Source of the DNA: Carcharhinus amblyrhynchos
Lineage: Eukaryota
DNA length: 64,000 nt
Assembly: GCA_965287045.1 (NCBI GenBank)
Contig: OZ336875.1
Coordinates: forward strand, 74,772,001-74,836,000
Reading direction: 5' to 3'
Every line of letters starts with the position of its first letter. The stretch's first letter is position 1. The position numbers were made by a program. Shown piece after piece: positions 18,001 through 24,000 of this stretch.

Positions 18001-21000
18001 TATGGATAAGTGCATTAAGCTGGATCACCTCACTGCAATAACTAGCTTGGCTGTGTTGGATCCCTCCCAATTCTTGCAAATCTGATTTTCATCTTCACTG
18101 TCTTTTATATGAAGTCAGTTTATACCCTTTGGCAGGAAAAGGATGGCCTTCTGAAGTGTGGTATTATTGGTGCCCTTCTGGATTGAGTAAATGGCAGAGA
18201 AATGCCTTCTATGCCCTGAACTTTAGAAGACTTGAGTCGCACAAAAATGACAGCTCCAATTAGGGAGTATTTTGTGTTGATAAAGAGCCATGCTGTTGAA
18301 GTATTTTGCCTGTACTCAGTAGGACAGTTTGCAAGATTGCCAACAGTAAAAGGAACAAATCATTTTGTGTAGAGTGCTAGTTGTTTGGCAGGTGGATGCT
18401 GGCAGAGGTGTTGCCATGGAGAATGCAGCATTAACTACTAAGCTTTGTCAAATTCAGACCAATCAGGTTGACTCTGGTCTGTGCATTGTCATGAAGAATG
18501 AACCAGGGAATGGTTGTTCCCTATAGTTAAAGGCACAAATTGTGGACATCCTTTCCTGTTTACCAAGGACAGGCTGTGTGAATGACTTCTAGCATGCCAA
18601 ATGAGCCATACCGATTGACTAATTTTTTAGTGTAATTCCAAGCAGTCAGGATTGTTAACAAATGTTATTCAATCACATCTTTTTTTTTGACACTTGTTTC
18701 AAGTTTTTTATAGGCACAGGCTAGTTGGGTATAGGCTGTTCTTCCTGTTGTAAACAGCTGAAAGGACATGCAGTTTGATCTGATCCACCAGTCGTTGGGA
18801 TGTACGTACCACGTTCCTGGCATCAGACTAAAACTGAATTATAGACCACCTTACTTGTGTGATAGAATGTCTTTCTGGCTTGACGGCAGCATCTCATTAC
18901 TGGAGGATACAACTCGTGTTGCTACTGTATGGGACAATTAACTTCACCTGTTACGTTTTTGAGATACCTTGCCCTTCCACCGTATTCTTGATGTCAACTG
19001 GGCACTTTCCAAGTCTGAAAGTGGCAGCCTTAGGACAATTAATGCATGCAAAACAGTGATCTGATCATGGTGGCCATTATCCTGTGGGATGGTTTTGTGC
19101 TCCCTCGTTCAGCATCAAGCTTGTCTGGAGAGCAAACGGCTCAGGTCCTATTTATGAAGTTGCTATTGAGGCCAATCTTGTAACATGTGGAACTGCAGGA
19201 ATCCCAACATGTATATTAACTGGTGAAGGGAAGCTTGTGGTATAGAGTACTAAAGAGCGCTAGCAGAGTTTTCAGCAGATGCATTGAGGAAATGGTGCTC
19301 CTGCTTTTCAGTGGTTAAATTTGAGTGCAGGGTGGAGCCCTTTAAGGCACAGCATGCAGCTGCAAATCCAAATGTAGCAAGCCATTGGAAAATTGCAAAG
19401 GATAGGAGGTTAGCCACCATTCAATTGGAGATGCATTCTCCATGGCAACATCTCTAGCCTGTCAATCAACAGTCTCCCCTCATGCAGTCTAAATTGTTAC
19501 CTTTACTGTTGGTAATCTTGTGATTTGTTCCTGAGTGTGCAAGATGAAGCTTGAACTGCATTTCTTTCCAGAAAGGTTCATGCTACTGGACTACCTGTGA
19601 CTGGGAGGTTTCATGCTCAGATTCTATGCTTGGTTATGCTCAGTAAGAAGTCTCAACATCAGCTTAAAGTCCAGCAGGTTTATTTGGTAGCACAAGCCCC
19701 TAGCTTTTGAAGCACTGCCCCTTCATCAGGTAGTGGGAGTTCCATCCACAAACAGGGCATATAAGACAAACTCAAAATAATGGGTGGGATGCATGTCTTT
19801 ACAGGTAATCAAGTCTTAAAGGTACAGACAATGTGAGTGGAGAGAGGCTTAAACACAACTTAGAAGTGTTGTTTGCAGCCAGGAGATTTTGCAAGTTGCA
19901 GGGGTTACAGATAATGTAACATGAACTCAGGATCCCAGTTGAGGCCATCGTTGTTTGCAGAACTTGGCTATTCTCTGCTCAGCAACTCTGAGTTGTCATG
20001 TGTCGTGAAGGCTGCTTTGGAGAACTGTTTCCCAAAGATCAGAGGCTGAATGCCCATGACTGCTAAACTGTTCCCCCAACAGGAAGAATACACTCTTGCC
20101 TGGTGATTGAGCAGTGTTCATTCATCCATGGTCAGTGTCTGCATGTATCCCCAATCTACCATGCCTCAGGACATCCTTTTCCTGCAGTGTATCAGTAGAC
20201 AGCATTGGTCGAGTTGCAAGTGTATGTACTGTGTACCTGGTGGATAGTGTTTTCGCATAAGATGATGGCATCTGTCGATGATCTGTACTACTTGCAGAGG
20301 TTGCTGTGGCAGGGTTGTGTGGTGTCGTGGTCACTTCTCCTGAAGGCAGGATAGTTTGCTGTGGACAATGGTCTGTTTTGAGGTTGTGCGGTTGTTTTGA
20401 AGGCAAGAAGTGGGGGTGGCCTTGGCATGATGTTTGTCATCAATGACATGTTAAAGTCCAGCAAAGACGTCATAGCTTCTCCGCTCTGGGGAAGTACTGG
20501 ACGACGAAGGGTATTCTGTTTGCTGTATCCTGTGTTTGTCATAGGTCAGTGTGATTTTTCACTGGCGTGTCAGAACTGTCGATTTGCCATATCCTGCTCT
20601 TGAGGGCATCTTCTAGCATCTGGAGGCGTCTCTTGTGATCATCTGAGTAGATCCTAAGGCTTGTCCATAGGGGATGGCTTCTTTAACGTGTTTAGGTTGG
20701 AAGCTGGAGAAGTGGAACATGAGGATGTTATCCATGGGCTTGTGATATGGGGGGGTGCTGAGGTGACTGTCCTTGATGGAGATATGTGACCAAGAATGCA
20801 ACCGATTCTGGAGAATAGTCCATGGTAGTCTGGGATGGAACTTGTCATCATATAGTTGTTTGTGATTTGTTCACTGAGTCCAAAGGAAGAAAATGTCATT
20901 GTATCTAGTGTGTAGCATATGTTGAAGGTCCTATGTGGTGAAGAGGTCTTGTTCAAACCTATGCATGAACATGTTAGTATATTGAGATGCAAATTTGTTG

Positions 21001-24000
21001 CCTATGGCTACTCTGTCTGGATGCAAACACAACAGGCCATCCCATCGTATCAGGCAATGGGACCCTGTGCAAAAGCCTCTCCGGCTATGTCAAGGACATA
21101 AACCTATTGTACAAGAACCTCCAGCTTTTGTTGCAACACTACAGACTTCCTACAGAAGCTCAGCACGCATGGAGCAGTTGAACCAGGAGCACTCAACGAT
21201 ACAATGGATGTCTCAACATTACATCAGCATCACCCACAAAGATGGCAGTTTCAAGACATCCATTGTCACTAAAGCTGGGGGTTCTTTGACAACGTCAAGG
21301 GCATTCTGTATTGTACAGAGGTTCTCGCACAGGGTCTCATTGCCCAAATGATGGGATGGCTGGGTGTGTTTGCATTCAGACACGAACAGCCATGGGGACC
21401 AAATTCACAGTTCCAATATGCCAGCATCTTTCGTAAGTTTGAACAAGATCTCTTCAACACATAGGACCTTCAACCAATGCTATACATTAGATACATCAAT
21501 GACATTTTCTTCTTTGTTGTCATATGTTGACCACTGAAACAACTATGACAACAAGTTCCACCCCACTATCAGACTCACCATGGACTACTCTATGGAATGC
21601 ATTCTTGGACACATCTCCATCAAGGACTGTCACCTCAGCACTTCACTGTGTCGCAAGCCCACGGATAACCTCACGATGCTCCATTTCTCCAGCTTCCCTA
21701 AACCTCTTTTAAAGAAGCCATCCCCTACAGATAAGCCCTCCTTTATACACAGGACCTGCTCAGATGAGGAGGATCACAACAGACACCTCCAGATGCTGAA
21801 AGATGCCCTGATAAGAACAGGATATGGCAGTTGACAGTTCCAATACGCCACAGTGAAAAACCACACTGACCTCAAGACAAACATGGGGCACAGCAAACAG
21901 AATACCCTTTGTCCAAAACTTCCCTGGAGTGGAGAAGTTACAACATCATCTTCAGAGCCTTCAACATTGATGCAGACAGACATCACGCAAGGCCATCCCT
22001 GCACCCCCACTTGCCTTCAAACAACCACACAACCTCAGGCCATTGTCTACAACAAACCACCCAGCCTTCAGGAGAACAGTGATCAAGACACCACACAACC
22101 CTGCCACAGCAGCTTCTGCAAGATTATCAACACCGATGCCATCTCATGAGAAAACCATCCACCAGGTACACAGTACATACACTTGCAACTCAGCCAACGC
22201 AGTCTACTTGATGCGCTACAGGAAAGGATGTCCAGAGGCATGGTACACTGGGGAGACCATGCAGATGCTACGGCAACAGATGAATGAACACCATTCAACA
22301 ATCGCCAGGCAAGAGTGTTTTCCTGTTGGAACACTTCAGCAGTCACAGATATTTGGTCTCTGATCTTTGGGTAAGCATTCTCCAAGGTGACCTTCACCAC
22401 ATGACAACACAGTCGCTGAGCACCAATTTGATAGCCAAGTTCTGCACAAATGAGGATGGCCTCAACCAGGATCTTGGGTTCATGTCACACTATCTGTAAC
22501 CCCCATGACTTGCCTGGACTTGCAAAATCTCTAACTGTCCTGACTGGAGACACTACACATCTCTTTAACCTGTGCTTAACCCTCTCTCCTCACATTGGCT
22601 GTACCTTTTTAAGACTTTACCTGTAAAGACTTGCATTCCATTATTTTGTAAATAGTTTGTCTTTATATGCCCTGTTTGTGAATTGAAATCCCACTCACCT
22701 GATGAAGGACGAGCACTCCAAAAGCTAGTGGTTTGTGCTATCAAATAAACCTGTTGGACTTTAACCTAGTGTTGTGAGACTTCTTACTGTGTTTACCCCA
22801 GTCCAACACTGGTATCTGCACATTATGGTTATGCTCAAGCAGACTTGGATTGTTCAGTTTCTGTAGTATCAGTATCATTGGCAAGACCATGTATTGCTCA
22901 TCCCTAATTCACCTTGAAGATGATGGTCTTGAACTGCATTAGTAAAGGTGTAGGTAAATCCTTGTTGCTGATGGAAAAGCATTTTTGATTCGACAAGTGA
23001 TGTAATTAAAAATCAGAATGATGTTGCAGGGAGACTTGGTCCCAAGCACTTTAACCATTCCTCTTCTAGATGGTGGAGGGTATGGGTTTGGAAGGTCCTG
23101 TCTGAGGAGCCTTGGTGAATTGCTGCAGTGCATCTTACAGATGGTGTATGCTGCAGTTACTGTCTCCACCTCCAACATAGTAACTGTTCAAGGTGATGGA
23201 TGTGGTGTTGATCAAGTGTGCTGCTTTGTTCTGGATAATGAGTTTGTTTCTGGATGATTGCAGCTCCAAATAGAATACTATCATCCTTGTCTTGTTAATG
23301 GTGGACAGGCTTTGAAAAGTTAGGTGGTGATAACCTCTGAAAAGTCCCAGCCACTGCACCTGTTCAGTTGCTCATCAGTGGTGAATGCCAAGATGTTGGT
23401 GGGAAATTGAGATGGTAAAGCATTTGAATTAGATTCTCATTCAAGATGGCCATTATCTGGTGCTTTATACAGTGTGACTGTTAATTCACTGGGAGCCTTG
23501 CAACTTTAGTTGCATAGGTATTGAACTTTTACTCAGGTGGTCCTGAAGATGGATCAGTCTTCCTTGCTTGGCTGAATTGCACTGCAAACCCAATCAGCGG
23601 CTGGTTACAGCAGTGGGATTCTATTGGACAGAGATGTGTGAACAGGAGGAACCTCTTTTGGCAGCCTTGACACTTGGTCCTGGTACCTGCCAATGTGATA
23701 GCATTCTCAGTGGCAGGAATTGGCCTCTTAGGGCCTCAGTTGACCCATGGATGAGCAGCTCACCCATTCCTCACCACTACCGATGAACACAATTCCTGGT
23801 GGTGAGTAGGCAATGACTGTAATGCCATGGCTCCAAATTTAATGCTTCTAAATGCCCTCAAGGGCATAAATTTCCAGCCTTGAATCCCTGTTGCAGGGTT
23901 GTTCAACTGTCATCCCTTGCATTGCATTGGGATACAGTAGCAGTTCAAGTTCTGAATCTGACCTCACCATTTTAAAATGTCTTGTGCTGTGAATCCTAGA

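What the first reader, a model, noticed from the sequence alone, without database searches (positions are those of the whole stretch)
19631..22837. 3.2-kb palindromic Penelope-like insertion bounded by one target-site duplication
Seen: 19641-21245 is the diverged reverse complement of 21246-22789, with both 3' ends pointing outward. The same 12-mer tggttatgctca lies at both outer edges (19631-19642 and 22826-22837; the last 2 nt overlap the element on the left). The right arm carries a 36-nt tail (22790-22825) that the left arm lacks. Established: Penelope-like elements can integrate with an inverted terminal-repeat copy and a short extra tail on one end. Inference: this is a single integration event that copied ~1.6 kb twice in opposite directions, much longer than a terminal repeat, rather than two independent insertions. 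It sits in a CAPRIN2 intron, so the pre-mRNA could form a long imperfect hairpin.
Basis: partly seen in the sequence, partly recalled or inferred. Interest (0 to 1): 0.75.

Follow-up and report, generated by a model that had tools for sequence, protein, structure and literature searches.

The report
Old inverted double Penelope-like retrotransposon insertion
A long-dead Penelope-like retrotransposon sits as two mirror-image 1.6-kb copies inside an intron of a shark caprin-2 gene; it shows the insertion signature already described for these elements, so it is a clean but ordinary example.

Summary
19641-21254 and 21255-22789 are reverse complements (84% identity). The exact 12-mer TGGTTATGCTCA sits at both outer edges, and a 36-nt tail is found on the right arm only. 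Both arms are decayed copies of the RT-to-GIY-YIG half and 3' UTR of an endonuclease-bearing Penelope-like element (PLE), with their 3' ends pointing outward.

The evidence fits one origin:
- both arms share a stop codon, frameshifts and an odd internal junction;
- they decayed equally (51 vs 42, p=0.41);
- their differences show no codon-position bias (p=0.43).

Each arm is itself a chimera: an inverted piece of RT residues 127-~206 is joined to residues 243-end, so the centre is a palindrome within the palindrome.

The best reading is twin target-primed reverse transcription from both strands of a staggered cut. The two cDNAs began at the two RT start sites that define the PLE tail (Frangieh 2024). 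The template was probably a defective transcript that already spanned an older head-to-head junction.

The host is caprin-2 on the + strand, in the 8.2-kb intron between exons 17319-17450 and 25637-25780. Head-to-head copies, a one-sided tail and a TSD are published PLE hallmarks, so this is a new member of a known kind. No shark genome was available, so orthologous empty sites and sibling copies stayed unchecked.

The parts
19631..19642 (+). Left copy of the target-site duplication TGGTTATGCTCA. The last 2 nt may belong to the element instead.
19641..21022 (-). Segment 1, outer part of the left arm. It is an antisense copy of PLE ORF residues 243-643 (RT motifs from QTHGTAMG onward, YIDD, linker, GIY-YIG EN) plus the 3' UTR. 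It ends at the proximal RT start site and has no tail.
19700..19729 (-). Minimal-hammerhead-like box in the left arm: CTGATGA, 15 nt, AAAGCTAG.
   Evidence: no Rfam match
21023..21254 (+). Segment 2, a sense copy of RT residues 127 to about 206 (ANxxGRPIVSGNG ... TMDVS ... HDDG). It is joined directly to the residue-243 end of segment 1. Its last 41 nt (21214-21254) form the unpaired centre.
   Evidence: 58 of 86 codons identical, score 261 against a shuffled maximum of 57
21255..21373 (-). Segment 3, an antisense copy of RT residues 127 to about 190, lacking 69 nt that segment 2 has (about 21132-21200). It begins with a 13-nt exact complement (21255-21267) of 21201-21213.
   Evidence: 24 of 41 codons identical, score 82 against a shuffled maximum of 45. 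Nucleotide identity to segment 2 is 76 of 101.
21374..22789 (+). Segment 4, outer part of the right arm. It is a sense copy of residues 243-643 plus the 3' UTR.
22699..22728 (+). Minimal-hammerhead-like box in the right arm.
   Evidence: no Rfam match
22790..22825 (+). 36-nt tail, the element's own 3'-terminal sequence, present on this arm only.
   Evidence: The same sequence, contiguous with the upstream 13 nt, occurs in a separate 47-nt fragment at 11212-11166 (87.5%; read).
22826..22837 (+). Right copy of the target-site duplication.
17319..17450 (+). Upstream caprin-2 exon (S. torazame caprin-2 residues 553-594).
25637..25780 (+). Downstream caprin-2 exon (residues 591-638; Caprin-1_C profile positions 98-152).

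Best explanation
This is one old, dead, head-to-head insertion of an endonuclease-bearing Penelope-like element (3' ends outward).

Inferred steps of the event:
1. The element's endonuclease cut both strands of the intron 10-12 nt apart.
2. Each 3'-OH primed reverse transcription of a roughly 1.6-kb PLE RNA.
3. The cDNA on the + strand (left arm) began at the proximal internal RT start site. The cDNA on the - strand (right arm) began at the distal start site 36 nt further on. That is why only the right arm carries the tail.
4. The two cDNAs were joined head to head near 21254/21255, and gap repair produced the TGGTTATGCTCA duplication.

The RNA template was already non-coding and already rearranged. 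It most likely was a transcript that ran across an earlier head-to-head PLE junction (antisense residues ~206-127 joined to sense residues 243-end). It would have been mobilised in trans through its intact 3' end.

Since insertion, both arms have decayed neutrally to 84% mutual identity. The element now does nothing known. On + strand pre-mRNA it is predicted to fold into a long, imperfect intronic hairpin.

Shown here: the anatomy, the shared lesions, the equal neutral decay, the duplication, the tail and the host intron. Inferred: priming on both strands, the use of two start sites and the nature of the template.
For: Anatomy, against the shark PLE protein P0014:
- Residues 243-643 map antisense to about 21022-19910 and sense to about 21374-22494.
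- Residues 127-~206 map sense to 21023-21254.
- Residues 127-~190 map antisense to 21373-21255.
- The same residue-243|residue-127 junction therefore lies on both sides, at 21022/21023 and 21373/21374.
- Read as collinear sense sequence, 21246-21375 scores 28, within the shuffled range (maximum 39).

Common, already defective template:
- a stop at residue 274 in both arms (21462 and 20933);
- paired frameshifts at residues 292-299;
- a -2 frameshift at residue 402 (21826 and 20588);
- in-frame deletions at residues 305-306 and 404-405;
- an equivalent frame change at residues 585-587.

Equal age: of 338 codons aligned in both arms, 51 match P0014 only in the right arm and 42 only in the left (binomial p=0.41).

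Neutral divergence: arm-to-arm mismatch rates at codon positions 1, 2 and 3 are 13.5%, 14.4% and 17.5% (chi-square p=0.43).

The nested segment is not younger than the arms: 76 of 101 identical, against 83-84% elsewhere.

Duplication at the exact edges.

The tail is element sequence and the 12-mer is not. The fragment at 11166-11212 carries the tail and then diverges.

Mechanistic precedent (main text of PMC11167929 read): purified Anolis PLE protein cleaves and extends both strands. It starts reverse transcription at two adjacent internal sites, and the tail corresponds to the sequence between them.

Published architecture (passages of PMC8557442 and PMC3846280): inverted 5'-truncated copies, a 30-40-bp tail at one end, variable TSDs, and pLTR sequences sufficient for mobilisation in trans.
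Against: - No empty orthologous site and no sibling or master copy could be examined, so 'one event' and 'rearranged template' remain inferences.
- A perfect 12 of 12 duplication beside arms that are 84% identical is expected only about 12% of the time (0.84^12; about 25% at the 89% identity of the 3' UTR). Part of the arm divergence could therefore predate insertion, for example two non-identical template RNAs.
- The target does not contain the ATT cleavage motif preferred by the Anolis enzyme.
- The window's own ORF fragments gave no Pfam family (0 of 12). No Rfam hammerhead matched.
- Gap events are frequent (63-82 against 189-228 substitutions), so the alignment-based counts carry some uncertainty.
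Confidence: 0.68

Rival explanations
1. One event, but from an ordinary collinear template. In this reading the nested centre arose during integration by serial template switches. The + strand cDNA jumped onto the other cDNA's 3' end at residue 127 and copied to about residue 206. It then snapped back on itself, copied back across the junction, and returned to the proper template inside the homologous residue-243-to-end region.
For: PLE inverted junctions often carry palindromes, which have been read as self-priming (passage of PMC3846280). A 13-nt exact stem (21201-21213 / 21255-21267) with a 41-nt loop sits at the turning point. The nested segment is as diverged as the arms. No master copy needs to be assumed.
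Against: It needs three switches plus a return, and repair of a heteroduplex. It does not explain why the template already carried a stop and frameshifts, although it is compatible with that. No clear microhomology is visible at the loop.
Confidence: 0.22
2. A single ordinary 5'-inverted PLE copy was inserted, and was later doubled into a palindrome at the DNA level by fold-back repair or a replication template switch.
For: The arms share every pre-duplication lesion and the internal junction. About 5-6 shared disabling lesions, against roughly 11-20 private ones per arm, would allow a delay before doubling.
Against: The duplication flanks the whole palindrome rather than one arm. The two outer ends differ by exactly a 36-nt element-derived tail, which is the published signature of two RT start sites. 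A DNA copy of the left arm could not create that tail.
Confidence: 0.06
3. Two independent PLE insertions, the second landing at the 5' end of the first.
For: PLEs nest into one another (passage of PMC3846280).
Against: Both arms share the same chimeric junction, stop and frameshifts, show equal decay, show no selection signature in their differences, and are bounded by a single duplication on the outside.
Confidence: 0.02
4. Assembly artefact: a chimeric or fold-back read assembled as a palindrome.
For: PLE tandem and inverted structures are known to trouble assemblies (passage of PMC8557442).
Against: The arms differ at 16% of aligned sites and by 63 indels. They have different ends (the tail) and a flanking duplication. 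An artefact would give near-identical arms.
Confidence: 0.01

Closest known systems
Head-to-head (inverted 5'-truncated copy) insertions of EN+ Penelope-like elements, e.g. Pen2a_Av of Adineta vaga (PMC3846280) and the general scheme in Craig et al. 2021 (PMC8557442)
   Same: An inverted copy abuts the 5' end and the 3' ends point outward. A 30-40-bp tail sits on one end only (31 bp there, 36 nt here). A short TSD flanks the whole unit (8-10 bp there, 10-12 nt here). A palindrome lies at the inverted junction.
   Different: There is no full-length copy and no direct pLTR. Both arms are about 1.6 kb and nearly co-extensive. Each arm contains a second, older inverted junction (residue 243 joined to inverted residue 127).
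PAc (Poseidon of Anolis carolinensis) in vitro, Frangieh et al. 2024 (PMC11167929)
   Same: Cleavage and extension of both target strands. Two adjacent internal RT start sites whose spacing equals the tail. An AC-rich hairpin at the start site; here CCAGU-CCAAC-ACUGG lies inside the tail, though it is no more stable than shuffles (z = -1).
   Different: The target here lacks the preferred ATT. The relative P0014 carries a CX2-5CxxC linker motif, which the passages of PMC8557442 assign to Neptune/Nematis and not to Penelope/Poseidon. Nothing was tested biochemically here.
L1 twin-priming inversions
   Same: The second target strand is used as a primer, an inverted 5' part sits beside a direct 3' part, and a single TSD bounds the insertion. 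The internal 243|127 junction of each arm looks like such an inversion with a small deletion.
   Different: In twin priming the two parts are different stretches of one RNA. Here the two arms duplicate the same 1.4 kb, and both begin at the element's 3' end.

Membership tests
EN+ Penelope-like elements | Reverse transcriptase domain related to PLE RTs | tested here: met
   Both arms align to the shark protein P0014, with 250 of 367 and 240 of 364 codons identical over residues 243-643. P0014 hits Pfam RVT_1 at E 5e-9. The window's own 12 ORF fragments gave no Pfam hit. Placement within the PLE RT clade by phylogeny was not done.
EN+ Penelope-like elements | C-terminal GIY-YIG endonuclease with two cysteines between GIY and YIG (CCHH motif; passages of PMC8557442) | tested here: met
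   P0014 reads VVYLIRCRKGCPGAWYIG. The right arm reads AVYLMRYRKGCPEAWYTG and the left arm AVY/IHCR/KGCPEAW*IG. The Atlas neighbours of P0014 residues 490-643 carry PF01541 GIY-YIG in 31% of members, which is a lead only. Pfam itself did not report GIY-YIG.
EN+ Penelope-like elements | Insertions 5'-truncated and arranged as tandem or inverted copies | tested here: met
   Two inverted copies lacking residues 1-126 and 207-242.
EN+ Penelope-like elements | [quoted passage not shown] | tested here: met
   A 36-nt tail at 22790-22825 on the right only. It is element-derived.
EN+ Penelope-like elements | Target-site duplication of variable length | tested here: met
   An exact 10-12 nt duplication at both edges. 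No shuffle of 5000 reached 12.
EN+ Penelope-like elements | Hammerhead ribozyme motif in the terminal repeat | tested here: inconclusive
   CTGATGA-N15-AAAGCTAG occurs only in the two arms, with 0 of 100 shuffles matching. Its layout resembles the minimal HHR described in passages of PMC4209133. The GAAA box reads AAAA in both arms. No Rfam family matched at E<=1, and the folds are no better than shuffles.
Neptune/Nematis versus Penelope/Poseidon clade of PLEs | CX2-5CxxC motif in the RT-EN linker (present in Neptune/Nematis, absent in Penelope/Poseidon) | tested here: met
   CHSNLCKTC at P0014 residue 505. CHSNLCK is retained in the left arm and CHSSFCK in the right. No phylogeny was made, so the clade assignment is only a lead.
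L1-type twin-priming inversion | Inverted and direct parts are non-overlapping stretches of one template | tested here: not met
   The arms duplicate the same residues 243-643 and 3' UTR.

The most novel reading that the evidence does not exclude
The element is a second-generation palindrome. A transcript reading across an older head-to-head PLE junction was itself a competent retrotransposition template, and was again inserted head to head by a dimeric PLE enzyme. If the duplication is read as 12 nt, that enzyme nicked a quasi-symmetric target at CA^AGCA on both strands. Dead head-to-head PLE loci would then keep seeding new, long hairpin-forming copies in host introns. The insertion also records the choice between the two RT start sites on the two strands of a single event in vivo.
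Probability: 0.3. Interest if true: 0.45.

Novelty: new member of a known kind. Interest (0 to 1): 0.25.

Why it matters
The PLE integration mechanism is still largely inferred. One clean genomic copy shows both strands primed, one start site used on each strand, an intact duplication and a datable pair of arms. That makes it a useful natural record to set beside the 2024 in-vitro data. The nested junction hints that rearranged, non-coding PLE transcripts can be mobilised in trans. For the host gene, the insertion places 3.2 kb of self-complementary sequence (39% of an 8.2-kb caprin-2 intron) in the pre-mRNA, a plausible substrate for dsRNA-binding or RNA-editing enzymes. None of this is unexpected for PLEs.

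Tried and rejected
- Rfam at E<=1 over 19000-23500 gave nothing.
- Pfam on 12 ORF fragments of the element gave 0 families. Domain identity therefore rests on shark relatives found.
- A first hammerhead-box pattern was mis-spaced by one base. It found only a chance-level match at 174-204, and 18 of 100 shuffles also matched. It was replaced.
- Folding the tail and the hammerhead-like boxes gave z-scores from -1.2 to +0.7, so there is no support for special stability.
- I considered whether 21246-21375 is the collinear RT stretch between residues 206 and 243, because its length fits (130 nt against about 120 expected). This was rejected: the score of 28 lies within the shuffled range. The length match is treated as coincidence.
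- The pure snap-back model, with the right arm copied from the left, was rejected because the left arm lacks the tail.
- blastn of the right arm against the window found no further long copies, only the 47-nt fragment. No local family consensus could therefore be built.
- Paper searches for shark PLEs and for head-to-head with template switching listed nothing specific on nested PLE palindromes. Only the listings were seen.

Those of PMC11167929 (start-site maps) and PMC8557442 (EN alignments) could bear on the start-site distances and on the clade call.
- The spliced caprin-2 model was searched exon by exon only. The joined step was left out.
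Full report
**Observation**

The region is a genuine, diverged 3.2-kb palindrome.
- The repeat finder reported 26 inverted pairs in 19000-23500 (25 shown), most of them collinear between the halves.
- A lenient local alignment of the two halves gives 1215 matches, 189 mismatches and 82 gap events (86.5%), running from 19641/22789 inward to 21131/21268.
- A stricter global alignment gives 1203 of 1431 columns identical (84.1%), 148 transitions, 80 transversions, 63 gap events and K2P 0.18.

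TGGTTATGCTCA occurs only at 19631 and 22826.
- The window-wide count is not significant in itself: 12 of 100 shuffles gave at least 2 matches at up to 1 mismatch.
- Its placement at both edges is significant. No shuffle of 5000 reached a 12-nt shared word, and 8 of 5000 real position pairs at the same spacing did.

The right arm runs 36 nt further (22790-22825) than the left. The window has no N and is 40.7% G+C.

**What the arms are**

The element's own ORF fragments gave no Pfam family (0 of 12). Two fragments did find shark proteins: 3 proteins with E<=0.001 among 102 candidates and 28 among 41 candidates.

The longest of these is P0014 (643 aa, Heptranchias perlo).
- It hits Pfam RVT_1 at E 5e-9.
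- It carries VVY..C..C..YIG, the two-cysteine GIY-YIG core that passages of PMC8557442 give as the mark of PLE endonucleases.
- It also has a CHSNLCKTC linker motif, which those passages assign to Neptune/Nematis rather than Penelope/Poseidon.

A frameshift-aware alignment (my own script) was run for each arm.
- The right side aligns with 477 codons, 314 identical, 2 stops and 19 frameshifts.
- The left arm aligns with 375 codons, 242 identical, 6 stops and 21 frameshifts.

Both arms are therefore dead copies of the RT-to-EN half and 3' UTR of an EN+ PLE, with their 3' ends outward. CpG is depleted: 20 observed against 83 expected on the left, and 16 against 77 on the right.

Mapping on P0014 gives four segments.
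1. 19641-21022, antisense, residues 643-243 plus the 3' UTR.
2. 21023-21254, sense, residues 127 to about 206. 58 of 86 codons are identical, with a score of 261 against a shuffled maximum of 57.
3. 21255-21373, antisense, residues about 190-127, with a 69-nt deletion relative to segment 2. 24 of 41 codons are identical, with a score of 82 against a shuffled maximum of 45.
4. 21374-22789, sense, residues 243-643 plus the 3' UTR, followed by the tail.

Each arm is thus itself a chimera: inverted residues ~206-127 joined to residues 243-end. The same 243|127 junction lies at 21022/21023 and at 21373/21374.

Read as collinear sense sequence, 21246-21375 shows nothing (score 28, shuffled maximum 39).

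The turning point is a 13-nt exact stem (21201-21213 / 21255-21267) around a 41-nt loop.

**One origin or two?**

Four lines of evidence point to one origin.
- Shared lesions. Both arms have a stop at residue 274 (21462 / 20933), paired frameshifts at residues 292-299, a -2 frameshift at residue 402 (21826 / 20588), deletions at residues 305-306 and 404-405, and an equivalent frame change at residues 585-587. The template was therefore already defective.
- Equal decay. Of 338 codons aligned in both arms, 183 match P0014 in both, 51 only in the right arm, 42 only in the left and 62 in neither (p=0.41).
- Neutral differences. Arm-to-arm differences are spread evenly over codon positions (13.5%, 14.4%, 17.5%; p=0.43). 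This is what neutral decay predicts, and not what two selected lineages would show.
- The nested segment is not younger than the arms: 76 of 101 identical against 83-84% elsewhere and 89% in the 3' UTR.

Together with the single outer duplication, this rejects two independent insertions. The 16% divergence also rules out an assembly artefact.

One point cuts the other way. A perfect 12-mer beside 84%-identical arms has only about a 12% chance. Some of the divergence may therefore predate insertion, for example two sibling template RNAs.

**The tail and the mechanism**

The tail is element sequence. A separate 47-nt fragment at 11212-11166 (-) carries it contiguous with the upstream 13 nt (87.5%, E 6e-10) and then diverges from our flank. 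The 12-mer is therefore not part of the element.

I read the main text of PMC11167929. It reports that a purified Anolis PLE protein cleaves and extends both target strands. It starts reverse transcription at two adjacent internal sites on either strand, and the genomic tail corresponds to the sequence between those sites.

That accounts for this locus directly.
- Both strands of a 10-12-nt staggered cut were primed.
- The left cDNA started at the proximal site and the right cDNA at the distal one.

Passages of PMC8557442 and PMC3846280 describe the rest of the architecture as standard PLE features:
- inverted 5'-truncated copies;
- a one-sided 30-40-bp tail;
- variable TSDs;
- palindromes at inverted junctions;
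- mobilisation in trans through terminal sequences.

The nested junction is most simply explained if the template was a transcript crossing an older head-to-head junction. The rival is serial template switching with a snap-back during this same event. A pure snap-back copy of the left arm is excluded, because the left arm lacks the tail.

**Hammerhead**

A CTGATGA-N15-AAAGCTAG box occurs only in the two arms, with 0 of 100 shuffles matching. Its layout is like the minimal PLE hammerhead in passages of PMC4209133. Against that, the GAAA box reads AAAA in both arms, Rfam found nothing, and the folds are not better than shuffles. This feature is inconclusive.

**Host gene**

All 410 stop-to-stop ORFs of at least 50 aa outside the element were scanned against Pfam.
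- Caprin-1_C pieces lie in collinear order on the + strand: 9271-9549, 25583-25786, 27620-27886, 28100-28318 and 42109-42345.
- A C1q domain lies at 48679-49407 (E 8e-34).

The last exon matches solved Caprin-2 C1q (4oul_A, E 1.1e-81). It also matches shark caprin-2 at up to 98% identity, with 1277 proteins at E<=1e-10 among 1673 candidates.

tblastn of three named shark caprin-2 proteins places exons at 17319-17450 and 25637-25780, which are adjacent in protein coordinates. The element therefore fills 3.2 kb of one 8.2-kb intron.

The exons were compared one by one.

**Hairpin**

The + strand RNA of 19631-22837 folds to -1923.7 kcal/mol. Of its 1311 base pairs, 1247 join the two arms in register, and the longest uninterrupted helices are 35 bp. 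Six controls give -816 to -948 kcal/mol: the left half reversed, three shuffles and two neighbouring stretches. Whether the hairpin forms in vivo is untested.

**Verdict**

The structure is a textbook PLE insertion signature with one extra twist, a palindrome nested within the palindrome. It is a new member of a known kind and of modest interest.

Orthologous sites, sibling copies and the family consensus could not be checked.

Noticed in passing
window 11166-11212 (-): A 47-nt fragment made only of the PLE 3' end (13 nt plus the tail sequence), 87.5% identical to 22776-22823. It is an extremely 5'-truncated copy that began at the distal start site.
   Followed up: partly
window 19624-19642 and 22826-22845: If the duplication is read as 12 nt, the inferred nick contexts are the same on both strands: top CTCA^AGCAGA and bottom ACCA^AGCATA. 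That is a quasi-palindromic target, as a dimeric endonuclease might cut. It is a single locus, read by eye. The chance of a 6-nt match is about 4^-6 times a few alternative placements. The target holds no ATT motif.
   Followed up: no
window 22744-22749 (+): AATAAA in the right arm, in the same orientation as caprin-2. It is a possible premature polyadenylation signal inside the intron. The left arm has its mirror copy on the - strand.
   Followed up: no
window 8523-8753 versus 9032-9168 and 9394-9480: Two adjacent stretches are inverted copies of sequence about 0.5 kb downstream (87% and 91% identity). The second source stretch overlaps the end of the caprin-2 exon at 9271-9411/9429.
   Followed up: no
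window 34006-34359 versus 59688-60041; 33988-34527 versus 37698-37177: A 354-nt direct repeat at 99.4% identity, which points to a young repeat family. The same family also forms a 541-nt inverted pair at 92%. No Pfam domain was found in the overlapping ORFs.
   Followed up: no
window 25637-25780 (+): This exon matched the S. torazame and H. francisci caprin-2 proteins, but not the Rhincodon typus isoform X7 used. It may be an alternative exon directly downstream of the insertion.
   Followed up: no
window 19631-19642 / 22826-22837: The duplication is perfect (12 of 12) although the arms are only 84% identical. The expected chance is about 0.12, a mild tension with the idea that all arm divergence arose after insertion.
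   Followed up: partly
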